59,466 bases of DNA, from IMG/VR virus record IMGVR_UViG_3300017762_000005. One strand, written 5' to 3'. How positions within the stretch are numbered: position 1 is the first letter of the stretch; each line of letters begins with the position of its first letter. Below are positions 8,498 to 43,820 of the stretch, piece after piece. This DNA comes from a virus. Under the pieces are notes generated by a model. It saw only the letters and a program-made list of their open reading frames with translations. It made no database searches and was not told the DNA's origin. The position numbers and the translations under genes were made by a program.

Positions 8498-8959
8498 ATG
8501 GCTATAACAACAAACGCAATATGTAATACTTTTAAAAAAGAATTACTTCAAGGAAAACACGACTTTGATACATCATCTGACACTTACAAGTTAGCGATGT
8601 ACACAAGTTCAGCGACTTTAGGAAAATCAACAGAAAACTATTCTACTAACCCAGGCGGTGGATCAAACACTGAAGTTACTTCATCAAACTACACAGCAGG
8701 TGGAAAAGCTTTGGTAAACCAAGGTGTAAAAGTTTCATCTTCAGTAGCTATTACTGATTTTGCTGATCTAAGTTTTCAAAACGTAACTCTTACTGCAAGA
8801 GGTGCTTTGATTTACAATACAACTACAGACGGTGGTTCAAATACTACTGACGCTGTTGCTGTATTAGATTTTGGTAGTGATAAAACTGCAACATCTGGAA
8901 CATTTACTATTCAATTCCCAGCATTCACAACATCTGCTGCGATATTAAGAATAGCATAA
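8498..8959 (+). CDS. Conserved phage structural protein (beta-rich, Thr/Ser-rich)
   Basis: 153-aa ORF with aaaggag RBS. The N-terminus 'FKKELLQGKHDF...YKLAMYTSSATL' is typical of small tail or fibre-associated proteins. Confidence 0.55.
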   Translation: MAITTNAICNTFKKELLQGKHDFDTSSDTYKLAMYTSSATLGKSTENYSTNPGGGSNTEVTSSNYTAGGKALVNQGVKVSSSVAITDFADLSFQNVTLTARGALIYNTTTDGGSNTTDAVAVLDFGSDKTATSGTFTIQFPAFTTSAAILRIA

Positions 8960-8980
8960 TAATTATGGGAGCCCGATCTA

Positions 8981-10420
8981 GTGACAACAAAAACATTTAC
9001 TGTTACAGTTTCTAATCCTGGATCGGGCAACAAATATTATTTAGATAGTGTACTAACCCCTACTATCTCATTAGCAAAAGGGGCTACTTATAAATTTGAT
9101 CAATCTGATGCATCTAACAATACTCATCCCTTAGTATTTTCATCAGATTCTGGAAACTCAACTCCATATACAGATGGAGTTACTACAAGTGGGACTCCAG
9201 GACAATCAGGAGCTTTTACACAAATTGTTGTAGCAAATACAGCACCTGCTTCACTATATTATTATTGTTCTAATCACGCTGGTATGGGTGGCCAAGCTAA
9301 TATTACTTCAAATACTTGGGGTGCATTAGATTGGGGACAAGGAAGTTGGGCAGCTCAAGGTGATGTAGGCTTATCTGTTAGTGGAATAGCTGCAACTTTT
9401 AGTATTGGAAACACAACAGTCGATGCTGACATTCAAGTTGGTTGGGGTGGAGATACATGGGGTGAAAATGAATGGGGAGACCTTTCTGGAACTAATCCTA
9501 TATTAGCTGGACAACAATTAACTTCTACAATTGGTTCTGTATCAGAATTAATTGTTGCTGAAGGTTCGGTAGATGTAACTGGAATACAATTAGCTTTTGG
9601 AACGCCAACTGCCGTTGGTGGTTCATCTGTGGATGTAACTTTAACTGGTTTAGAATTAACTTCTGCTATGGGAGAAGAAACAATTGGTATTGGAGCCAAT
9701 GTTACTGGATCACAAGCAACAACTACTTCTGGATCAGTTACTATTGATCCTACTTTTTTAATTGGTGAAGGTTGGGGCAGAGATACTTGGGGTATTTTAG
9801 GTTGGGGTGTAAATTATTCTGCATTAGCACAAATGAGTGCTTTAACTTCTACGATTAATTTCCCAGCTGCAAACGCATTCACTGATGTAGAAGTTTCTGT
9901 TAGTGGAACAGCATTAACAATGACTTTCGCAAATCCATCCTTCTCTATTATAAGTGATGTTGGTATAACTGTACTTGCTTCTGAAGATCAATTAGATGCA
10001 GAAATTGGATCAATCTCTTCTGTTGTTGGAACCACTACAGTAGATTTGACTGGTGTACAAGCAACTATGTCTCAAGGAAACACAGTTGGTGGATTAAAAA
10101 CTCCAGTAGATGTAACTGGAATTCAAGCTACGATGACTCTAGGAACAACGGCTCTTGTACAAACAACAGTTGAGCAACCGACTGGAATTCAAGCTACGAT
10201 GAGTCTTGGACAAACAGAAGATATTCCGGGTCAAAATCAAGGTGTTATTGGACAAGAATTATTATCATTAATAGGTCAAGCAACTGTCACTGGTATTGCA
10301 AATGTGACTGTTAGTGGTATAGAATTGACAAGCTCTGTTGGTAGTACTAATATAACAGCATGGTCTGAAGTAGATCCAGGAGTAAATAATGTTTGGTCAG
10401 AGGTTGATCTAGCAGCATAA
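8981..10420 (+). CDS. Fibre-like protein: N-terminal cupredoxin (type-1 copper) domain plus repetitive beta-rich shaft
   Basis: GTG start. 'THPLVF' and 'YYYCSNHAGMGG' give H...C-x2-H-x2-M. Repeated 'TG(I/V)QATM(S/T)(L/Q)G' units and WG-x3-WG motifs follow. Confidence 0.6.
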   Translation: MTTKTFTVTVSNPGSGNKYYLDSVLTPTISLAKGATYKFDQSDASNNTHPLVFSSDSGNSTPYTDGVTTSGTPGQSGAFTQIVVANTAPASLYYYCSNHAGMGGQANITSNTWGALDWGQGSWAAQGDVGLSVSGIAATFSIGNTTVDADIQVGWGGDTWGENEWGDLSGTNPILAGQQLTSTIGSVSELIVAEGSVDVTGIQLAFGTPTAVGGSSVDVTLTGLELTSAMGEETIGIGANVTGSQATTTSGSVTIDPTFLIGEGWGRDTWGILGWGVNYSALAQMSALTSTINFPAANAFTDVEVSVSGTALTMTFANPSFSIISDVGITVLASEDQLDAEIGSISSVVGTTTVDLTGVQATMSQGNTVGGLKTPVDVTGIQATMTLGTTALVQTTVEQPTGIQATMSLGQTEDIPGQNQGVIGQELLSLIGQATVTGIANVTVSGIELTSSVGSTNITAWSEVDPGVNNVWSEVDLAA

Positions 10421-10457
10421 GTAAGGTAAAATTATAATTATTTAGGAGAACAAAATT

Positions 10458-11711
10458 ATGGCTTCAAGTTATTCAGCAGATTTAAAATTAGAACTTATGG
10501 TAACTGGCGAAAATGCTGGTACATGGGGTGATAATACAAATGAAAATTTAAAATTAGTTCAACAAGCAATAGCTGGTTATGAAGCAGTTGCATTATCAAA
10601 TGGTGGAACTGTGGCTCTTGCAATGTCTGATGGAGCATTATCAAACGCAAGAAATATGGTAATTAAATTTACTGGAACCTTAACAGGTGCATCAGTAGTA
10701 ACAATTCCAAATTCAATTGAAAAATTTTATATTTTTGATTTATCCGCAGTTGGTGGAATAACTAATCTTACAATTAAAACTGTAAGTGGAACAGGGTTTA
10801 CTCCTGCTGAAGCAAAAATAGTTGCAGCTTATTCTGACGGAACAAATTTAAATGAGATAGCATTAGACACATTAGGTGGAACTATTGGAACTGCACAAAT
10901 TGCTGATGATGCAGTGACTAACGCAAAAATAGCTGATGATGCTGTAAGAGCCGCACAGATTTCAAACAACGCAGTTGTAACTGCAGGAATTTTAGATGCG
11001 AATGTAACTACGGCTAAAATTGCCGATGACGCAGTAACGACAGCCAAAATTTTAGATGACAATGTAACTGCTGGTAAATTAGCAGATACTTCAGTGACTG
11101 CAGGATCATATACACTTGCATCAATTACAGTAGATGCACAAGGAAGATTAACTGCTGCCTCAACAGGTGCGGCTGGTGGAGCAAATATGATTTTGACGAG
11201 ATCAGAAAAAGGACCTAATAGTGGAAACCACGTTGCACAACCAAACGCTACAAAAATTTTAGCTTACTGTTTAGGTGGCGGTGGTCCCGGTGGCCGAGGT
11301 GCTTTTAACTCACCAGGAGTTGGTGGACAAGGTGGAACTGGTGGCGGAGGAGCATTCTTAATTCCAATATCACAACCTTCTACATCAGCTTATGTTGTAG
11401 GTGGTGCTGCTGCAACTACTACTTTTGGAAATAATGCAACAGGTGGAGCAGGAAATGGTGGACAAGCAGTAACCCCTCCCGGTGGACCTCCAGGAAACCC
11501 AGGTAACACGGGGACTTCAACTGGAAACCATTTAGTTGTAGATTATGGCCCAGGTAATTTTGGTGGTAACTTTGTAGCCACTTTAGCTGGAAATATACCT
11601 TCCATAAATGGTGGTGGAAATGGTGGTGGTGCACAAACAACAAACCCTAATTTTCCAGGACAACCAGGACAACCGGGTGCACTAATAATCTACGAAGATT
11701 TAGGAGCATAA
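10458..11711 (+). CDS. Tail fibre protein
   Basis: N-terminus 'LKLELMVTGENAGTWGDNTNENL', about 6.5 copies of an 11-aa repeat (KIADDAVTxA), and a Gly/Pro-rich C-terminus with X-P-G runs. Confidence 0.75.
   Translation: MASSYSADLKLELMVTGENAGTWGDNTNENLKLVQQAIAGYEAVALSNGGTVALAMSDGALSNARNMVIKFTGTLTGASVVTIPNSIEKFYIFDLSAVGGITNLTIKTVSGTGFTPAEAKIVAAYSDGTNLNEIALDTLGGTIGTAQIADDAVTNAKIADDAVRAAQISNNAVVTAGILDANVTTAKIADDAVTTAKILDDNVTAGKLADTSVTAGSYTLASITVDAQGRLTAASTGAAGGANMILTRSEKGPNSGNHVAQPNATKILAYCLGGGGPGGRGAFNSPGVGGQGGTGGGGAFLIPISQPSTSAYVVGGAAATTTFGNNATGGAGNGGQAVTPPGGPPGNPGNTGTSTGNHLVVDYGPGNFGGNFVATLAGNIPSINGGGNGGGAQTTNPNFPGQPGQPGALIIYEDLGA
10890..11108 (+). repeat. In-frame 33-bp (11-aa) tandem repeats inside the tail fibre gene
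   Basis: AQIADDAVTNA / KIADDAVRAAQ / ISNNAVVTAG / ILDANVTTA / KIADDAVTTA / KILDDNVTAG / KLADTSVTAG. Confidence 0.75.
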
Positions 11712-11712
11712 C

Positions 11713-12138
11713 ATGGCAAAAATATTATTAGATAACGGAAATTTTTTAGTAATATCAAAATCTGATGCAGACGCTGCAGATGCAAATATTGCTTCACACT
11801 TAAAAACTGAAATTGATATTTCAGATAGTGATTTTAATAGTTATGTTACAAATCAAAAAAATGTAACTATTGATGGGTCGACTGCAACTTTCACAGATTT
11901 TGAATCAGAATCAACAATGCCAGATGAAGCTGGTTTACAAAATAAATTTGATATATTTACTACTAGAGCAAATGATTATTTGAGAGGTAATAGTTCAAAA
12001 CAATTTGGTGTAAGATTAAAAGCATATGTAGATTATCTTTTAACAGTTGATAAAAGTTCTCTTACTTATCCTATAAATTGGGAAAAACATTGTTCAGATA
12101 ATTCTATTGATTTTGTACATATACAAGAAATTGGCTAG
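11713..12138 (+). CDS. Hypothetical protein downstream of the tail fibre (fibre chaperone or accessory?)
   Basis: 141-aa ORF starting 2 nt after the fibre stop. Confidence 0.55.
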   Translation: MAKILLDNGNFLVISKSDADAADANIASHLKTEIDISDSDFNSYVTNQKNVTIDGSTATFTDFESESTMPDEAGLQNKFDIFTTRANDYLRGNSSKQFGVRLKAYVDYLLTVDKSSLTYPINWEKHCSDNSIDFVHIQEIG

Positions 12139-12179
12139 TAAAACTTGATTTTTAAAATAATTAGTAGTAATACTAATTT

Positions 12180-12932
12180 ATGTTAGAGAAACAAATTGAG
12201 TTTATTGCACCTAAATCATATTTTAATTTAAAACAAGATTATCCAAAACCTATTAAATTAAACATACCTGACTGGTATAAAAAACTAGAGCATTCTGTAA
12301 ACAATAGAACAATTAAGGGATGTATTCCTGTATTAGACAGTTTGACTTTTGGTTATTCCTTATCAATACCAGTTGATATTACTATTCATCACAATGTTAC
12401 TAACAAAGACAAAAATGGAAAAGAATTTAAAGATTCTTTTTATGGGTGTCCTATTGAAAAAAATATGCCAAGTGAAGGTATAAATATTAATGATGGAACT
12501 CATTTTTCTAACCATCCTATAGGACAATTAAAAGGTTCTCCACATGTTGAAAAAAATAAAAATTTACCATTTTATAAAATTTCTAATCCTTGGATAATAA
12601 AAACACCACCTGGTTATTCTTGTTTATTTGTTCCTCCATTAAATAATGCAGACGATAGGTTTACTATTATACCTGCTATTGTAGATACGGATACTTTTCA
12701 TAAAGAAATAAATTTTCCTATAGTATTAAATGGTGATAAATATCCTAATCTTGAAACAACACTTAAAAAGGGTACGCCTTATGTACAAGTAATACCTTTT
12801 AAAAGAGATAATTGGAAAATGAAATTATCAACTATGGAGGAAAGAAAAAATAGGCTTAATAATTTTTTGTATCCTTTAAGAATACTTCATACATATAAAC
12901 TAGATTTTTGGAATAAAAAATCATGCAAGTAA
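12180..12932 (+). CDS. Conserved phage protein, function unknown (first gene of the oxygenase island)
   Basis: 250-aa ORF with 'IPDWYKKL...IKGCIPVLDSL' and 'IIPAIVDTDTF..INFP'. A cupin-like fold is only a guess. Confidence 0.55.
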   Translation: MLEKQIEFIAPKSYFNLKQDYPKPIKLNIPDWYKKLEHSVNNRTIKGCIPVLDSLTFGYSLSIPVDITIHHNVTNKDKNGKEFKDSFYGCPIEKNMPSEGININDGTHFSNHPIGQLKGSPHVEKNKNLPFYKISNPWIIKTPPGYSCLFVPPLNNADDRFTIIPAIVDTDTFHKEINFPIVLNGDKYPNLETTLKKGTPYVQVIPFKRDNWKMKLSTMEERKNRLNNFLYPLRILHTYKLDFWNKKSCK

Positions 12933-39469: not shown

Positions 39470-39693
39470 TGAACATAGATAAATGGAAATCTGTAGCAAT
39501 TAAAAAAACAGATTACGATTTGTTAAAGGGGTTATGTAAAGAAAAATTTAGGGCTCCCGGTGCAATGATATCAAAAATATTAAGTGATTACATTGATCAT
39601 CAAGCTAGGAAACATAAAATTCCTAATGCAACGTTTCGTACAAAACTTATAAATGGAGATGCAAATGTCGGATCCAAAAGAAATAAAAGCTAA
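39469..39693 (+). CDS. Possible ribbon-helix-helix DNA-binding protein
   Basis: Beta-strand 'KSVAIKK' then two helices ('TDYDLLKGLCKE', 'GAMISKILSDYI'). Weak call. Confidence 0.35.
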   Translation: MNIDKWKSVAIKKTDYDLLKGLCKEKFRAPGAMISKILSDYIDHQARKHKIPNATFRTKLINGDANVGSKRNKS

Positions 39694-39862
39694 AGAGTTT
39701 TTTACAATCGAACTTGATCATGAAAAAAATAATGTGATTTTGTATGTTAATGGAGTTATGAGAAATAAAATACACACTATTAAGGCAGAATCTTTATTTG
39801 ATCGTATGCTTAAGATAGCAAAACTTAAATTTCTTAAAATGAGAAAACAAGTTGAACAATAA
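39653..39862 (+). CDS. Small hypothetical protein
   Basis: 69-aa ORF overlapping both neighbours. Confidence 0.45.
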   Translation: MEMQMSDPKEIKAKEFFTIELDHEKNNVILYVNGVMRNKIHTIKAESLFDRMLKIAKLKFLKMRKQVEQ

Positions 39863-40910
39863 ACTCAAAGTATTAGATTTATTCAGTGGTATTGGAGGCT
39901 TTAGTTTAGGTCTTCATTCCACTGGTATATTTGATACAGTAAAGTTTGTAGAGTTTGATAAATTTTGTCAAAAGGTTTTACAAAAGAATTTTAAAAATAT
40001 ACCAATAGAAGGAGATATAAGAGATGTCAAAGGACAAGAATTCGAAGCAGATGTCATTACTGGAGGATTCCCATGCCAACCGTTCAGTGTTGCAGGAAAA
40101 CAAAAAGGAACAGATGACAACAGATATCTCTGGCCAGAAATGTTTAGACTCATTAAAGAGATCAAACCAGAATTCGTTATTGGGGAGAATGTGCAAGGCC
40201 TTATTAACCTCCAAGACGGCATGGTACTCAGACAGGTGCAGGACCAATTGGAAGGTGAAGGTTTCGAAGTCCAATGTTTCCTTATTCCAGCTTCAGGCCT
40301 CGGTGCTTGGCACCAAAGGAATAGAGTCTGGATTATTGGCCACTCCAAACACAATGGATTACTTGCCTCCGAGAAGCGTTCAAGGGACAAAAAAATTAAT
40401 GGAGGGACACAGAAAGGGCAGAACCAAACCATCGAATCTGAGAGAACAAATGGATCCACAAACAATGGCAATGTATCCAACACCATCAGCGAGTTGCAAT
40501 ATGGATGTAGTAGCCCCAGCAGAGACAGTAAAAAAGAATTCAACAGGTTGGAGTGTAACGAGGGTTGGGACTGGCAGAGTCTTCGGAGCCAAACTGAACG
40601 ATGTAGTGAACAAGATAGAGAAGGACAAAATGTTTCCAACACCGAAACAAAGGGATTACAAAGACGCAGCATATCAACCGACTTGGAAAGACAGTCTAGA
40701 GAAAAATTTACCGAGAACAGTACTGAAGGACAACAAACCTGGTGGCAAACTCAATCCAACATTTGTGGAGTTCCTAATGGGATTTCCCATGAATTGGACA
40801 AAGATAGATCCAACAGAATAAAAAGTTTAGGTAATGCAATCGTTCCACAATGTGCAAGAATCCTAGGTCTTGCTATAAAACAAGTTTTAATCGAGGAAGA
40901 TAGGTTATGA
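39852..40910 (+). CDS. dcm: DNA (cytosine-5) methyltransferase, frame-0 ORF: motifs I-VIII and X, but a non-canonical low-complexity middle
   Basis: 'DLFSGIGG' (I), 'GGFPCQPFS' (IV), 'GENV' (VI), 'QRNRVWIIG' (VIII), 'RIKSLGNAIVPQ' (X). Roughly 40341-40815 translates to S/N/E/R/Q-rich sequence. Confidence 0.8.
   Translation: MNNKLKVLDLFSGIGGFSLGLHSTGIFDTVKFVEFDKFCQKVLQKNFKNIPIEGDIRDVKGQEFEADVITGGFPCQPFSVAGKQKGTDDNRYLWPEMFRLIKEIKPEFVIGENVQGLINLQDGMVLRQVQDQLEGEGFEVQCFLIPASGLGAWHQRNRVWIIGHSKHNGLLASEKRSRDKKINGGTQKGQNQTIESERTNGSTNNGNVSNTISELQYGCSSPSRDSKKEFNRLECNEGWDWQSLRSQTERCSEQDREGQNVSNTETKGLQRRSISTDLERQSREKFTENSTEGQQTWWQTQSNICGVPNGISHELDKDRSNRIKSLGNAIVPQCARILGLAIKQVLIEEDRL
40024..40821 (+). CDS. 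Nested +1-frame ORF encoding the methyltransferase target-recognition region and motif IX
   Basis: AAGGAG-N9-ATG at 40009-40026. C-terminal 160 aa carry 'LLATPNTMDY', 'MYPTPSAS', 'MFPTPKQRDYKD' and 'KLNPTFVEFLMGFPMNWT'. Confidence 0.55.
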   Translation: MSKDKNSKQMSLLEDSHANRSVLQENKKEQMTTDISGQKCLDSLKRSNQNSLLGRMCKALLTSKTAWYSDRCRTNWKVKVSKSNVSLFQLQASVLGTKGIESGLLATPNTMDYLPPRSVQGTKKLMEGHRKGRTKPSNLREQMDPQTMAMYPTPSASCNMDVVAPAETVKKNSTGWSVTRVGTGRVFGAKLNDVVNKIEKDKMFPTPKQRDYKDAAYQPTWKDSLEKNLPRTVLKDNKPGGKLNPTFVEFLMGFPMNWTKIDPTE

Positions 40911-40996
40911 TTTTTTTATTGAATGTGCTTATTATCGCTTTAATATATGGGTTTATTATATTTTTATTAATGCTTTGGAATAAAGAGGAGTTATGA
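40907..40996 (+). CDS. Hydrophobic micro-ORF (29 aa, single TM)
   Basis: MIFLLNVLIIALIYGFIIFLLMLWNKEEL, with ATGA overlaps at both ends. Confidence 0.45.
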   Translation: MIFLLNVLIIALIYGFIIFLLMLWNKEEL

Positions 40997-41268
40997 AATA
41001 CAACAAGTTAGCCTATAAAATATATAAGTCTTTAGATGAAAAGACTCAGAAATGTTTAGGTGTAGAGTACGATATTGAAAAAGTAGATAACACTGAAAAT
41101 AAAAAATGGAATGATAGATTTCTAATGTCTTTCTGTAATTGGTTATGGATGAAAAAATTTAAAAAAAATAAAACTGTATGGATTTCATTAATGCAGCAGA
41201 TGCAAAAATTAAAAAACGATCAGATTAGATTAATGGCAGAAGGCCCTTTCCCTTTTATAAAAAAATAA
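40993..41268 (+). CDS. Small hypothetical protein
   Basis: 91-aa ORF with gaggag RBS. Confidence 0.55.
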   Translation: MKYNKLAYKIYKSLDEKTQKCLGVEYDIEKVDNTENKKWNDRFLMSFCNWLWMKKFKKNKTVWISLMQQMQKLKNDQIRLMAEGPFPFIKK

Positions 41269-41339
41269 TCTCTAGTCCCTTGTACCCACGACATTGAATA
41301 GTTTATAATTAGTACTTGCATGAAAAGAAAAATTTTTAT

Positions 41340-41552
41340 ATGAGTATTAATAGTTACAACACAACGAGCTGTATAGATTGTAGTGGAAGAGGGTATATTC
41401 GAACAATTCAGTCTAATTCTAAAGTTTCTTGTATCATTTGTAACGGATTAGGAACCACGTTTCACGGACCAAAATCAGAAGCAGAAAAAGTTTTTTTATT
41501 TAAATTAGCGTGGGATTATATTAATGGCAAAGAAAAAGGATGGTATCACTGA
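41340..41552 (+). CDS. DnaJ-type zinc-finger mini-protein
   Basis: Two CxxCxGxG repeats, 'CIDCSGRG' and 'CIICNGLG'. ATG 41340; the ORF track TTG is at 41316. Confidence 0.55.
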   Translation: MSINSYNTTSCIDCSGRGYIRTIQSNSKVSCIICNGLGTTFHGPKSEAEKVFLFKLAWDYINGKEKGWYH

Positions 41553-41829
41553 GTTAACTAAGTTGCTAATAGATGCAGCAGAACACTTTACGCCTAGTAA
41601 ATACAGTAGATTAAAATCAGTTATATTCGCATTACTTCATGGAGTAAATTATGGTTATGATTCAATGGACCAAAAATTTCTCAATGATGCTTCTGATATA
41701 TACAGCTTTCATACAACCACCGACAAGGCTAAGTCTTATAAATTAAAAAAAGTTAAAAAAAATAAAAAAACTAATAATGTAATAGATTTTAAAAGCTACT
41801 CGAAAGTTTCGGTGACCCATGATGCCTGA
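41524..41829 (+). CDS. Small hypothetical protein
   Basis: 101-aa ORF. Confidence 0.5.
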   Translation: MAKKKDGITELTKLLIDAAEHFTPSKYSRLKSVIFALLHGVNYGYDSMDQKFLNDASDIYSFHTTTDKAKSYKLKKVKKNKKTNNVIDFKSYSKVSVTHDA

Positions 41830-42034
41830 TAACTATACCAAAGAAGAAGCTATACAAGATTTCAATTCAATCAAAGAACATATTGCAGATGAAGATTTGC
41901 AAGGCGCTGCTATCACCATTTTGTTGAGTGATATACAAGAACATTACGAGGTCGCTACTCGATTAAATTTTAAAAAATCGAAAGGCCATTATCGTGATCT
42001 ACTCTCTAGACTTATTAAAACTTATGGGCACTAA
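41819..42034 (+). CDS. Small hypothetical protein
   Basis: 71-aa ORF. Confidence 0.5.
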   Translation: MMPDNYTKEEAIQDFNSIKEHIADEDLQGAAITILLSDIQEHYEVATRLNFKKSKGHYRDLLSRLIKTYGH

Positions 42035-42467
42035 GGTGGCTTCCGATATGGTTTCAGAAAATCATGTTTGCAATGAACAGAAGTTATGGAGGCATGTAAT
42101 ATTAAATGCGTTTGAAGATACTAGAACGGATAGTGGAGATAGAAAAGCAAGTTTAAATAAGTGTGATGCACATTATTGGATTGCAGAATCTAAAGACTTT
42201 GAACAGATTTGTTGGTGGGCTGGTTGGGAACCAGATGATGTAAGATATAGATATTATAAGGCATTAAAAAAAGGTGACATAAAATTTAAAAGAAGACATT
42301 TTTTATGGCATGAATATGCTGTGTTATTTCAAAGACTTAAGGTAACAACTAATTTAGATTTAAGACGTGAATTAAGAAGAAATGTAGAAAATAAAAGAAG
42401 ACAAATTATGGATGCGGATAATGTTTATGTTGATAAATTTTTAAGAGATTTTTCAGCTGAATTTTAA
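42024..42467 (+). CDS. Hypothetical protein (Trp-rich)
   Basis: ATG 42024; the ORF track offers a GTG at 41994. Confidence 0.55.
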   Translation: MGTKVASDMVSENHVCNEQKLWRHVILNAFEDTRTDSGDRKASLNKCDAHYWIAESKDFEQICWWAGWEPDDVRYRYYKALKKGDIKFKRRHFLWHEYAVLFQRLKVTTNLDLRRELRRNVENKRRQIMDADNVYVDKFLRDFSAEF

Positions 42468-42532
42468 TCTGCAACCCAGGGAGCAATCTCTAAGTTGCAG
42501 ATAACCTATAAGTAAAGATAGATTTAATATAA

Positions 42533-42793
42533 CTATAATTTTAAATTTTGCAAATTGTTTTTTGGCCTTCTAAAAAATGTTCTCCATAGCCACGATCTAC
42601 ATAAGCTTATAGCTGTAAAAATTACTGCTATATGAAAGCTTTCCCAGACTGTTGGATACATATCGAAAAAAGGGAATATCCATAGTTGTATCATGGTGCT
42701 TAAAATAAGACCACTGCCTACATCACATAATGTTTCAAATAAGTTTCTCATAAAAAAACCTAGGCCTATAAGAAAGGATATAAGCCTAGGCAA
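42533..42793 (-). CDS. Small multi-pass membrane protein
   Basis: 86 aa with three hydrophobic segments, divergent from the large noncoding region. Confidence 0.5.
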   Translation of the reverse strand: MPRLISFLIGLGFFMRNLFETLCDVGSGLILSTMIQLWIFPFFDMYPTVWESFHIAVIFTAISLCRSWLWRTFFRRPKNNLQNLKL

Positions 42794-43004
42794 CTAACAA
42801 GAGAAGTTATGAAAATGATAAAAAACATAACAACCTTGTTTACATTACCTGAGTCGTTAAAAAACTACAAGCGTTTTGTAGAGTTAACCGTGGGTCGAGG
42901 GCATAGAACCATTGACCTAAGTAAATGATAAAAGAATCACGGCTCACGGCACAATGTTGCCACAAATTCCCAATTTCCTAGTACGTTCTCTTAGAAAAAA
43001 AAAA

Positions 43005-43024
43005 TAAAAAAAATATTTGTAAGG
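43005..43024 (+). repeat. Direct repeat TA(7-8)TATTTGTAAGG, copy 1
   Basis: Matches 43059-43077 except for one extra A. Confidence 0.75.
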
Positions 43025-43058
43025 GTTTTTTTCTAGGAAACCAGGAAAAACATTGGTA

Positions 43059-43077
43059 AATAACAATTCTAGAGCAA
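43059..43077 (+). repeat. Direct repeat TA(7-8)TATTTGTAAGG, copy 2
   Basis: See copy 1. Confidence 0.75.
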
Positions 43078-43217
43078 AATAGACCAGGAATTTACTAGGA
43101 AAATTCCCAGAACTTTAGGAAAAAAATACAGAGAGGCCGTTTTCTGCTTAAAAAAAATTAAAAAAATATTTGTAAGGAAGTGTATTAGGAAAAAATTATG
43201 ATATAACTGGTCAAGAA

Positions 43218-43733
43218 ATGACTAAGAGAAAAAACACATTAAAATCTACAACTGAACTTACTTTAAAGCAAAAAGCTTTTGTTGATATATATGTTGGTAA
43301 TTGGGGTGAGATTACTAAGGTTGAAGCTGCTAGAAGAGCTGGTTATCAATCCAATAAACCAGAAGGCCCCACAGAGATTGCAAGTAGATTAACCGATCCT
43401 AATAAAAATCCTCATGTAGTGCGTTATATGGAAATGAAATATAACCAAGAATTAAAAAAACATGAAGGTGATAAATTAAAAAAATATAAACGATTTGAAA
43501 CTTTAAGTAAAAAAGCAGAAGATAAGAAACAGTTTTCTGTAGCTGTAAATGCAGAATACAGATCTGGACAAATGGCAGGTATGTTTGTTGATAAGAAGGA
43601 AGTAACACATGTAGGATTGGAGGGAATGAGTCGTGAACAACTTGAAAAGAGGCTATCCGAACTTGAAGGAAAAATCGGAGAAGCCAAAGACATTATTAAC
43701 GTCACGCCAGAAAAAATTACTCAAGGAGGGTGA
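43218..43733 (+). CDS. terS: Terminase small subunit
   Basis: 'LTLKQKAFVDIYVGNWGEITKVEAARRAGYQS' is an HTH typical of the Terminase_2 family; coiled-coil C-terminus. Confidence 0.6.
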   Translation: MTKRKNTLKSTTELTLKQKAFVDIYVGNWGEITKVEAARRAGYQSNKPEGPTEIASRLTDPNKNPHVVRYMEMKYNQELKKHEGDKLKKYKRFETLSKKAEDKKQFSVAVNAEYRSGQMAGMFVDKKEVTHVGLEGMSREQLEKRLSELEGKIGEAKDIINVTPEKITQGG

Positions 43734-43820
43734 TTTTATGACGGTGTTCAATGAGATTCACAACCAACATTTAAATACATCTGTTGGTATCGTTTCAATT
43801 TTAACTGAGGATAAAAAATG

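What the first reader, a model, noticed from the sequence alone, without database searches (positions are those of the whole stretch)
39852..40910. C5-cytosine methyltransferase with its target-recognition domain in a second, fully nested reading frame
The 352-aa frame-0 ORF has textbook motifs I (DLFSGIGG), IV (GFPCQPFS), VI (ENV) and VIII (QRNRVWIIG), plus motif X at its end (RIKSLGNAIVPQ). Between about 40341 and 40815 it translates to S/N/E/R/Q-rich sequence with nothing that resembles a TRD.

The expected TRD and motif IX signatures of phage Dcm enzymes all sit in frame +1. These are the repeated 'xPTPxA' boxes (LLATPNTMDY, MYPTPSAS, MFPTPKQRDYKD) and 'KLNPTFVEFLMGFPMNWT'. They belong to ORF 40024..40821.

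That ORF has its own AAGGAG-N9-ATG (40009-40026) and is nested inside the frame-0 gene for 798 nt. About twenty stop triplets in this interval all fall in the third frame. By hand count, about 30 frame +1 codons end in T and none is followed by AA/AG/GA, although roughly a third of the codons start that way. This suggests selection keeps frame 0 open.

I see no slippery heptamer at either junction (about 40340 and 40815). The options are therefore (a) a two-subunit methyltransferase from overprinted genes (M.AquI is a precedent for a split C5 methyltransferase, but it is not nested), (b) unconventional +1/-1 recoding, or (c) two compensating indels.
Basis: partly seen in the sequence, partly recalled or inferred. 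Interest (0 to 1): 0.85.

Follow-up and report, generated by a model that had tools for sequence, protein, structure and literature searches.

The report
Nested two-frame cytosine methyltransferase gene pair
One stretch of this marine phage's DNA is read in two overlapping frames, most likely making a catalytic and a DNA-recognition subunit of one cytosine methyltransferase; this layout was known from one E. coli enzyme but is conserved here across hundreds of phages and bacteria.

Summary
ORF-A (39852-40910, 352 aa) carries C5-methyltransferase motifs I-VIII and X. ORF-B (40024-40821, +1 frame, 265 aa) carries the PTP-box modules and motif IX and lies wholly inside ORF-A.

It is not an assembly error or a pseudogene. 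All 60 non-identical marine relatives, Paenibacillus and Lacticaseibacillus phages, and 71 of 72 bacterial or archaeal loci have the same two-frame layout. In the middle segment, frame 0 has no stops in 60/60 sequences, against about 7 expected.

ORF-B has a conserved Shine-Dalgarno site and ATG. Its N-terminal part suppresses synonymous change in ORF-A. In a quarter of relatives it continues in its own frame past the ORF-A stop into further conserved protein. The frame-0 middle is a polar linker that is not sequence-constrained but is kept open.

Best explanation: two polypeptides, a catalytic alpha (I-VIII, linker, X) and a specificity beta (N-domain, TRD, IX), that assemble into one enzyme. 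I found no support for programmed frameshifting. Expression and activity are untested.

I class it as a new variant of a known kind, because the TRD-like part is on beta. Its apparent breadth is the interesting part.

The parts
39852..40910 (+). ORF-A (alpha): 352-aa C5-cytosine methyltransferase frame with motifs I-VIII, a polar linker, a pre-X element and motif X. The TTG start overlaps the stop of the upstream ORF (39653-39862).
   Evidence: PF00145, 187 bits, E = 6.8e-55; TIGR00675, 169 bits; start position shared with relatives, TTG or ATG; at least 7998 homologues at E <= 1e-20; all 120 listed carry PF00145.
39876..40340 (+). Alpha catalytic core: motif I 39876-39899, IV 40065-40088, VI 40185-40193, VIII 40314-40340.
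   Evidence: Aligns to M.HhaI residues 12-175 (E = 1e-24) and to Mycobacterium phage Moonbeam gp69 residues 1-154 (E = 1e-27).
40341..40736 (+). Alpha linker (aa 164-295, frame 0). Polar and low in hydrophobic residues, with no sequence constraint, but kept free of stops. Its length varies among relatives.
   Evidence: 0 stops against about 7 expected in 60/60 sequences. (ORF-B synonymous sites vary freely here: 1.10 and 0.68 bits). (82% polar). (ORF-A is 312-473 codons stop-to-stop across related loci).
40737..40886 (+). Alpha C-terminal part: pre-X element TWWQTQS..CGVPNGISHELDK (40737-40802) and motif X RIKSLGNAIVPQ (40815-40850).
   Evidence: (aligns to Moonbeam gp69 residues 328-353). (codons in this overlap are doubly constrained: 0.71 and 0.43 bits).
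40009..40026 (+). Internal ribosome-binding site AAGGAG (40009-40014), a 9-nt spacer and the ATG (40024-40026) of ORF-B. A +1-frame TAA (40018-40020) lies just upstream.
   Evidence: Conserved in 60 relatives as GAAGGAG or GAGGAGG plus ATG, with a different SD and ATG register in 3 of them. The Gly codon in the SD is always GGA, unlike other Gly codons. In bacterial relatives the first ATG sits a median 44 nt before [FY]PCQ, and 43 of 73 have an SD-like site. The region is weakly structured.
40024..40821 (+). ORF-B (beta): 265 aa in the +1 frame, fully nested in ORF-A.
   Evidence: 324 homologues; of the 120 listed, all but two lack a Pfam domain; 14,654 clusters at 50% identity with E <= 1e-3; phrog_1008, E = 1.4e-24; 464 IMG/VR contigs.
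40024..40338 (+). Beta N-domain (aa 1-105), overprinted on alpha motifs IV-VIII. The most constrained part is about aa 38-105 (KCLDSLKRS...WYSDRCRTNWKVKV...LFQLQASVLGTKGIESG).
   Evidence: ORF-A synonymous codon entropy falls from 1.29 bits upstream of the ORF-B ATG to 0.47 here (Mann-Whitney P = 7e-7); 0 stops in 60/60 sequences against 1.9 expected; alt-frame identity between distant lineages exceeds the synonymous-shuffle null (median z = 3.3).
40339..40746 (+). Beta variable region with 'xPTPxA' modules (LLATPNTMDY 40333-40362, MYPTPSAS 40471-40494, MFPTPKQRDYKD 40630-40665). Presumed target-recognition part; the number of modules varies among relatives.
   Evidence: ORF-B residues 150-263 align to residues 212-333 of the one-frame enzyme Moonbeam gp69 (E = 1e-6).
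40747..40800 (+). Motif IX (KLNPTFVEFLMGFPMNWT) in the beta frame.
   Evidence: aligns to M.HhaI 272-291 when spliced to motif X; the alignment itself is not significant; invariant L243, F247, E249-M252.

Best explanation
The locus is a nested, same-strand pair of genes that most likely encodes a two-polypeptide C5-cytosine DNA methyltransferase.

Alpha. Ribosomes starting at TTG 39852 make alpha (352 aa). It has the AdoMet-binding and catalytic large domain (motifs I-VIII). A polar linker of about 135 aa follows; its sequence is free to drift but must stay stop-free. The chain ends with a pre-X element and motif X. In solved C5 methyltransferases motif X belongs to the large domain.

Beta. 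Ribosomes starting at the internal AAGGAG-N9-ATG (40009-40026) read the +1 frame and make beta (265 aa). It has a conserved N-domain overprinted on motifs IV-VIII, a variable set of 'PTP' modules, and motif IX. That corresponds to the small, DNA-recognition domain.

Assembly. Alpha and beta then associate non-covalently into the active enzyme, as shown for M.EcoHK31I.

Shown here: both frames are open well beyond chance; selection acts on both frames; the internal start site is conserved; the pieces align in the order A-B-A on a one-frame relative.

Inferred: both proteins are made, they bind each other, beta sets specificity, and the enzyme protects phage DNA from host restriction.
For: Stop avoidance:
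- Frame 0 has 0 stops in the middle against 7.4-10.3 expected in the window (0 of 20000 shuffles). The deep-sea relative KT997847 gives P = 1e-4.
- All 60 non-identical relatives have 0 stops against about 7.2 expected, although ORF-A length varies from 312 to 473 codons.

Breadth of the layout:
- It is present in 80 IMG/VR loci.
- It is present in the cultured Paenibacillus phage Jacopo, where gp56 and gp57 are annotated as nested CDS, and in Lacticaseibacillus phage R9.1.
- In 71 of 72 loci from diverse bacterial and archaeal genomes, motif IV is in the -1 frame relative to motif IX. Motif X is in that same frame in 65 of 65.

Translation of ORF-B:
- The SD and ATG are conserved, including an alternative register and an invariant GGA codon within the SD.
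- ORF-A synonymous entropy drops from 1.29 to 0.47 bits under the beta N-domain (P = 7e-7).
- Between distant lineages, alt-frame identity exceeds the null (for example 56% against 27%, z = 8.6).
- In about a quarter of marine relatives ORF-B reads through the motif-X region in its own frame. It then continues past the alpha stop into another PTP module and a conserved domain of about 130 aa. Beta is therefore a free-standing frame, not an insert between two frameshifts.

Alpha linker: ORF-B synonymous sites are unconstrained there (1.10 and 0.68 bits), and the linker is 82% polar.

Colinearity with the one-frame enzyme Moonbeam gp69: ORF-A 5-161 to gp69 1-154, ORF-B 150-263 to gp69 212-333, ORF-A 298-335 to gp69 328-353.

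[quoted passage not shown] Alpha has I-VIII and X, beta has IX, both chains are needed for activity, and the beta N-terminus mediates association (PMC2836561, PMC3404938).
Against: - There is no expression or activity data for this gene or any close relative.
- AlphaFold2 models of alpha and beta alone were of low confidence (pLDDT 30.7 and 46.0). No complex could be modelled, so the alpha-beta interface is pure inference.
- Stop-freeness of the beta N-terminal region in the window alone is not significant (P about 0.08-0.10). It rests on family-wide data from related, not independent, sequences.
- The first third of the beta N-domain is only weakly constrained (0.97 against 1.29 bits), so the true start could be a downstream Met (40114 or 40189).
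- The deep-divergence signal for the window's own lineage is modest (z = 0.7-3.8).
- Junction 2 contains ACA AAG (40798-40803), a possible -1 slip site that cannot be judged because both frames are coding there.
- I could not test sequence homology to M.EcoHK31I itself.
Confidence: 0.72

Rival explanations
1. Programmed recoding. Ribosomes shift +1 just after motif VIII (about 40340) and -1 after motif IX (about 40803-40815) to make one canonical single-chain methyltransferase. This could occur alone or alongside the unshifted product.
For: Splicing the frames gives a canonical order I-VIII, TRD, IX, X that matches one-frame enzymes such as Moonbeam gp69. ACA AAG at junction 2 could allow a -1 slip of tRNA-Lys, and it is conserved.
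Against: - There is no slippery heptamer, rare-codon context or stop codon at junction 1, in the window or in 60 relatives.
- There is no RNA structure beyond chance downstream of either junction (z = 0.43 and -0.22).
- Recoding would not require frame 0 to stay open for about 135 codons, nor frame +1 to stay open and constrained for 105 codons upstream of junction 1.
- In a quarter of relatives the +1 frame continues past junction 2 into conserved protein.
- Two shifts in series would give low yield.
- The Pfam score gains only 2 bits on splicing (189.2 against 187.2).
Confidence: 0.07
2. Beta is translated and conserved but is not a methyltransferase subunit. It might be a regulator or an unrelated phage function. 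Alpha would then act alone or with another partner. Alternatively, only alpha is functional and beta is an evolutionary passenger.
For: No solved structure or curated family covers beta. The AlphaFold2 model of beta alone is poor. In some relatives beta carries an extra C-terminal domain of unknown function. In Mycobacterium phage Moonbeam the +1 ORF shows no selection and the enzyme appears to be single-chain.
Against: Beta holds motif IX and the region that aligns with the in-frame TRD and IX of one-frame relatives. Alpha has no constrained sequence between VIII and pre-X, so alone it would lack a small domain. The passenger idea conflicts with the conserved SD and ATG and with the synonymous-site suppression. 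In the EcoHK31I precedent the nested beta is required for activity (PMC2836561).
Confidence: 0.12
3. Artefact or decay: two compensating indels from assembly error, or a pseudogene.
For: Some database entries are frame-hopping chimeras (P0092, P0101, P0108, P0211). KT997847 has an extra break in an A8 run.
Against: The same junctions occur in hundreds of independent assemblies and in cultured phage genomes down to about 30% protein identity. Both frames are stop-free against strong expectation. All length changes preserve both frames.
Confidence: 0.01

Closest known systems
M.EcoHK31I (E. coli HK31; Lee, Kam and Shaw 1995, as described in PMC2836561 and PMC3404938)
   Same: It is a C5 methyltransferase made of two polypeptides. 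The beta gene lies entirely inside the alpha gene in another reading frame. [quoted passage not shown] The beta N-terminal segment serves association with alpha, and internal Met codons can also start beta.
   Different: In EcoHK31I the literature places the predicted TRD in alpha and only motif IX in beta. Here the alpha middle is an unconstrained polar linker, and the TRD-like PTP modules sit in beta. Beta also starts far upstream, with about 105 aa overprinted on catalytic motifs IV-VIII. EcoHK31I belongs to a restriction-modification system, whereas this gene is a phage cassette with no nuclease seen beside it. Sequence homology could not be tested, because the sequence and the 1995 paper were not available.
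M.AquI (Karreman and de Waard 1990, as described in PMC3404938)
   Same: It is a natural two-subunit C5 methyltransferase split within the variable region.
   Different: [quoted passage not shown] Here motif X stays with alpha, and beta is fully nested rather than being a downstream gene.
Paenibacillus larvae phage methyltransferases, such as Jacopo gp56 and gp57 (NC_048718)
   Same: They have the same nested alpha and beta layout. Beta is 30% identical to ORF-B over its full length (E = 1e-27). Both CDS are deposited as 'DNA methyltransferase'.
   Different: They come from Firmicutes phages and have a different module content. The genome paper I could read lists the methyltransferase genes only in a gene table (PMC6070908). 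Other records of the same phage group annotate only alpha.
One-frame phage Dcm-type enzymes, such as Mycobacterium phage Moonbeam gp69
   Same: They are homologous in the catalytic core, PTP-type modules, motif IX (RLHPAFPEWMMGWPAGWVT) and motif X.
   Different: The PTP modules that align with ORF-B, together with motifs IX and X, lie in the same frame as I-VIII. A +1-frame ORF exists there but shows no excess conservation.

Membership tests
C5-cytosine DNA methyltransferase (Pfam PF00145 / TIGR00675) | Profile score above the curated cut-off | tested here: met
   ORF-A scores 187.2 bits against PF00145 (cut-off 22) and 169.2 bits against TIGR00675 (cut-off 100.65).
C5-cytosine DNA methyltransferase (Pfam PF00145 / TIGR00675) | Motifs I (FxGxG), IV (PCQ), VI (ENV), VIII (QxRxR) and X (GNxVP) in one chain | tested here: met
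   All are in ORF-A at the coordinates given.
C5-cytosine DNA methyltransferase (Pfam PF00145 / TIGR00675) | TRD and motif IX in the same chain, between VIII and X | tested here: not met
   Motif IX and the TRD-like modules are in the +1 frame (ORF-B). The frame-0 segment between VIII and pre-X is unconstrained.
C5-cytosine DNA methyltransferase (Pfam PF00145 / TIGR00675) | Transfers methyl to C5 of cytosine in DNA | not testable with these tools
   Needs an expression and methylation assay.
EcoHK31I-type nested heterodimeric C5 methyltransferase | The beta ORF lies entirely inside the alpha ORF in another frame | tested here: met
   ORF-B 40024-40821 lies inside ORF-A 39852-40910, in the +1 frame.
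EcoHK31I-type nested heterodimeric C5 methyltransferase | Alpha has I-VIII and X; beta has IX | tested here: met
EcoHK31I-type nested heterodimeric C5 methyltransferase | TRD located in alpha (as described for EcoHK31I) | tested here: not met
   The alpha linker shows no sequence constraint and is 82% polar. The region homologous to the in-frame TRD of Moonbeam gp69 is in beta.
EcoHK31I-type nested heterodimeric C5 methyltransferase | Both polypeptides are made, associate and are required for activity | not testable with these tools
   Only indirect support: the conserved SD and ATG and selection on both frames.
EcoHK31I-type nested heterodimeric C5 methyltransferase | Sequence homology to EcoHK31I alpha and beta | not tested
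M.AquI-type split methyltransferase | The small subunit carries motifs IX and X | tested here: not met
   Motif X is in the alpha frame. ORF-B stops at 40821, 7 nt into the motif X coding stretch (40815-40850).
Programmed ribosomal frameshift site | Slippery sequence at the shift point | tested here: not met
   Junction 1 (GTCTGGATTATTGGCCACTCC) has none, in the window or in 60 relatives. Junction 2 has ACA AAG, which is inconclusive because both frames are coding there.
Programmed ribosomal frameshift site | Stimulatory downstream RNA structure, or a 0-frame stop or hungry codon | tested here: not met
   Fold z-scores are 0.43 and -0.22. Frame 0 is kept open rather than terminated.
Functional overprinted (same-strand nested) gene pair | Both frames open beyond chance across relatives | tested here: met
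Functional overprinted (same-strand nested) gene pair | Purifying selection attributable to the second frame | tested here: met
   Synonymous-site suppression in ORF-A under the beta N-domain (P = 7e-7). Excess alt-frame identity between distant lineages (median z = 3.3).
Functional overprinted (same-strand nested) gene pair | Own translation start for the nested frame | tested here: met
   The SD and ATG are conserved. Actual initiation is not shown.

The most novel reading that the evidence does not exclude
The nested alpha/beta design may not be a curiosity of one E. coli enzyme. It may be the normal state of a very large, phylum-spanning clade of phage and mobile-element C5 methyltransferases.

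In that clade a separate specificity subunit would carry the whole target-recognition part. Its roughly 100-aa N-domain would be overprinted on catalytic motifs IV-VIII. That would make it one of the longest and most widely conserved same-strand gene overlaps in prokaryotic viruses.

Most genome annotations miss beta, so many 'orphan phage Dcm' enzymes would in fact be obligate heterodimers. Their specificity could then evolve by adding or swapping modules in beta while alpha's linker passively follows.
Probability: 0.5. Interest if true: 0.72.

Novelty: new variant of a known kind. Interest (0 to 1): 0.6.

Why it matters
- Annotation. If both products are made, the standard annotation of this methyltransferase clade as a single CDS is incomplete for thousands of genes. 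Predictions of phage methylation specificity from the 'variable region' of the annotated protein would be reading a meaningless linker.
- Overlapping genes. It would supply a large natural data set for how two proteins share one DNA sequence. The overlap is about 800 nt, has three different constraint regimes, and spans phages of SAR11, Firmicutes and Proteobacteria as well as bacterial and archaeal genomes.
- Engineering. Natural heterodimeric C5 methyltransferases are sought as scaffolds for targeted methylation (PMC2836561). A family with a detachable, modular specificity subunit would widen that toolbox.

Tried and rejected
- AlphaFold2 of ORF-B with 41 sequences gave pLDDT 46. ORF-A with 38 sequences gave pLDDT 30.7, even in the Rossmann core. 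The alignments were too shallow or too narrow, so I ran no fold search.
- A profile of beta against PDB sequences found nothing. Pfam and NCBIfam have no model for beta. Only PHROG phrog_1008 covers it.
- The Pfam score did not discriminate the frame-0 from the spliced protein (187.2 against 189.2 bits).
- RNA folding downstream of both junctions showed nothing beyond chance.
- Literature searches for frameshifted or nested cytosine methyltransferases found only the EcoHK31I and AquI descriptions. The original EcoHK31I paper is not held, and no supplement is held. I could not test homology to EcoHK31I.
- The 234-aa minus-strand ORF 39968-40672 is rejected as a third gene, because it is not conserved.
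- The A AAA AAG heptamer at 40530-40536 is rejected as a shift site. It is not at a junction, and such heptamers are common in this A-rich genome (73 found against 61 expected).
- I first took Gordonia phage CheeseTouch gp88 for a one-frame relative. Its PTP modules are in fact in the +1 frame, while IX and X are in frame A. So the downstream junction differs between lineages.
Full report
**What is there**

The window carries a 352-aa ORF (ORF-A, 39852-40910, TTG start) and a 265-aa ORF in the +1 frame (ORF-B, 40024-40821) that lies wholly inside it.
It matches Pfam PF00145 (187 bits) and TIGR00675.
- ORF-B has the three 'PTP' boxes and KLNPTFVEFLMGFPMNWT (motif IX). It is preceded by AAGGAG, a 9-nt spacer and ATG.
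- All 21 stop triplets within the overlap are in the third frame.
- With frame +1 taken as coding, shuffles expect 7-10 frame-0 stops in 40342-40818. The observed number is 0, and none of 20000 shuffles reached it.

The window itself is an HTVC023P-like pelagiphage. The methyltransferase cassette sits in a variable slot that has synteny on both sides.

**Not an artefact**

- A deep-sea podovirus fosmid (KT997847), about 72% identical in DNA, has the same two frames and the same stop avoidance.
- A search with ORF-B found 464 IMG/VR contigs. In the 80 loci fetched, essentially all show frame A open from motif I to motif X (312-473 codons) and frame B open from the same ATG through motif IX. The third frame is open for only 2-22 codons at the same spot.
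- Among 60 non-identical sequences, frame A has 0 stops in the middle against 7.2 expected per sequence. Frame B has 0 stops upstream of junction 1 against 1.9 expected.
- The layout recurs at about 30% protein identity in cultured Paenibacillus larvae phages. In Jacopo, gp56 and gp57 are deposited as nested CDS. It also recurs in Lacticaseibacillus phage R9.1, where ORF-B is unannotated.
- Full-length beta-type matches in tblastn also occur under the annotated methyltransferase genes of Acinetobacter, Pseudomonas and Salmonella phages.
- In 71 of 72 loci from Clostridia, Bacteroidota, Proteobacteria, Planctomycetes, Saccharibacteria, Actinomycetes and methanogen genomes, motif IV is in the -1 frame relative to motif IX. 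Motif X is in that same frame in 65 of 65.
- An exhaustive profile search with ORF-B found 14,654 clusters at 50% identity. ORF-A has at least 7998 close homologues.

Two compensating assembly indels, or a pseudogene, are therefore excluded.

**Which frame is constrained where**

Taking columns where the amino acid is conserved, I measured codon entropy in the 60 sequences, for 3/4/6-fold and for 2-fold degenerate amino acids.

| Region | Frame measured | 3/4/6-fold (bits) | 2-fold (bits) |
|---|---|---|---|
| Upstream of the ORF-B ATG | ORF-A | 1.29 | 0.68 |
| First part of the overlap (columns 55-91) | ORF-A | 0.97 | 0.43 |
| ORF-B aa about 38-105 (columns 92-162) | ORF-A | 0.47 | 0.31 |
| Middle (ORF-B aa 108-237) | ORF-B | 1.10 | 0.68 |
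| Motif IX / pre-X overlap | ORF-B | 0.71 | 0.43 |

- In ORF-A, synonymous variation falls sharply under the ORF-B N-terminal part. In that most constrained stretch, 25-41% of codons are invariant (Mann-Whitney P = 7e-7).
- In the middle, ORF-B synonymous sites vary as freely as in single-coding sequence. The frame-0 translation there is not under amino-acid selection; it is only kept open. It is 82% polar or charged.
- Around motif IX and pre-X, both frames are constrained.
- Between distant lineages (alpha 46-62% identical), identity of the +1-frame translation over motifs IV-VIII exceeds the synonymous-shuffle null. The median z is 3.3. Jacopo against R9.1 gives 56% against 27%, z = 8.6.
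- The window's own pairs give z = 0.7-3.8. Pairs with Mycobacterium phage Moonbeam give z of about 0-2.5. In that one-frame enzyme the +1 ORF is probably not functional.

**Evidence that ORF-B is a free-standing reading frame**

- The SD and ATG are conserved. Relatives have GAAGGAG or GAGGAGG nine nt before ATG. Three relatives have a different register, AAAGGAG-N6-ATG.
- The Gly codon inside the SD is always GGA, while other Gly codons vary.
- In bacterial relatives the first ATG sits a median 44 nt before [FY]PCQ, often behind AAGGAG.
- In about a quarter of the marine relatives ORF-B does not stop after motif IX. It reads through the motif-X region in its own frame and passes the ORF-A stop. 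It then continues into another YRTPTAMD module and a conserved domain of about 130 aa. A shift back to frame 0 is therefore not part of the ORF-B product.
- No slippery heptamer exists at junction 1.
- Downstream RNA folds are no better than shuffles.
- ACA AAG at junction 2 is conserved but doubly coding, so it cannot be judged.

**Relation to one-frame enzymes**

On Moonbeam gp69, which has the modules that align with ORF-B and all ten motifs in one frame, the window's pieces align colinearly:

| Window piece | gp69 residues | E-value |
|---|---|---|
| ORF-A 5-161 | 1-154 | 1e-27 |
| ORF-B 150-263 | 212-333 | 1e-6 |
| ORF-A 298-335 | 328-353 | 0.014 |

- Spliced to motif X, motif IX also lines up with M.HhaI 272-310. 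That alignment alone is not significant.
- The frame boundaries coincide with the structural domains of C5 methyltransferases. [quoted passage not shown] This is established knowledge of M.HhaI-type structures, and PMC3404938 describes the roles of the two domains.
- The downstream junction differs between lineages. In Gordonia phage CheeseTouch the PTP modules are in the +1 frame, but IX and X are in frame A.

**Mechanism proposed**

I propose two polypeptides made from one DNA stretch.
- Alpha is the catalytic domain, a passive linker and motif X.
- Beta is the N-domain, the modular recognition region and motif IX.
- The two assemble non-covalently into one enzyme.

The anatomy, the selection on both frames and the start-site conservation are shown. 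Translation, assembly, the role of the N-domain in docking, specificity residing in beta, and anti-restriction use are inferred. I put confidence in this model at about 0.7.

**Comparison with what is known**

The design is not unprecedented. [quoted passage not shown] Alpha has I-VIII and X, beta has IX, both are needed for activity, and the beta N-terminus mediates association (PMC2836561; PMC3404938). M.AquI is split differently, with IX and X both in beta.

Compared with the published description of EcoHK31I, this gene differs in two ways:
- It carries the TRD-like part on beta.
- It has a long beta N-domain overprinted on catalytic motifs IV-VIII.

Whether EcoHK31I belongs to the same clade could not be tested. 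The literature calls such enzymes exceptions. I found no paper noting how widespread the nested layout is. Some GenBank records do annotate both CDS.

**Verdict**

- Interpretation (a) is supported, (c) is refuted and (b) is unlikely.
- This is a new variant of a known kind.
- Interest is 0.6. The single gene is explained by a 1995 precedent. The apparent ubiquity and depth of conservation of the dual coding, and the relocation of the recognition part to the nested frame, would interest both methyltransferase and overlapping-gene specialists.

**Limits**

- There are no expression data.
- Both structure predictions failed.
- The entropy tests do not model phylogeny.

Noticed in passing
window 39968-40672 (minus strand): A 234-aa ORF runs antisense through the methyltransferase gene. 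Its phase has a median of 6 stops (range 2-11) in 60 relatives, so it is not conserved. It is most likely a by-product of T-poor, doubly coding sequence.
   Followed up: yes
window 40530-40536: A dnaX-like heptamer A AAA AAG lies in the ORF-B frame in the middle of the overlap. It is not at a junction, and the codons there vary in relatives. Such heptamers are common in this A-rich genome (73 found against 61 expected).
   Followed up: partly
L011, L013, L019, L025, L038, L039, L047, L055, L057-L059, L061, L069, L080 (the ORF-B frame beyond the ORF-A stop): In about a quarter of marine relatives ORF-B runs 130-200 codons past the ORF-A stop. The extension holds an extra YRTPTAMDKGD module and a conserved C-terminal domain (..KKTTIDHWLRSDHCFAYPT..ESDWE) of unknown function. 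The window has the short form.
   Followed up: partly
L001 (KT997847), about 2630-2770: The deep-sea relative has an extra frame break in an A8 run that splits the alpha N-terminus into two annotated CDS. This is either a sequencing error or decay of that copy.
   Followed up: no
database proteins P0092, P0101, P0108, P0211: Some predicted 'proteins' hop between the two frames at various points. Because both frames are open, indels or errors produce plausible-looking chimeric ORFs that gene callers accept.
   Followed up: partly
window 39470-43800 against HTVC023P 8538-12448 (L002): The methyltransferase cassette occupies a variable slot of an HTVC023P-like pelagiphage, with synteny on both sides. 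HTVC023P has no methyltransferase there. The ORF just downstream (40993-41268) is unrelated to HTVC023P gp15.
   Followed up: partly
L087 (Gordonia phage CheeseTouch gp88) and L085 (Mycobacterium phage Moonbeam gp69): Actinophage relatives place the downstream frame junction elsewhere. CheeseTouch has its PTP modules in the +1 frame but IX and X in frame A. Moonbeam has the modules that align with ORF-B, and IX and X, in frame A. Moonbeam's +1-frame ORF resembles the beta N-domain but shows no excess conservation.
   Followed up: partly
window 39852-39862: The ORF-A TTG start overlaps the last codons and the TAA stop of the upstream ORF (39653-39862). This suggests translational coupling. Relatives use TTG or ATG at the same position.
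   Followed up: no
whole window: ARAGORN found no tRNA or tmRNA genes in the 59.5-kb window.
   Followed up: yes
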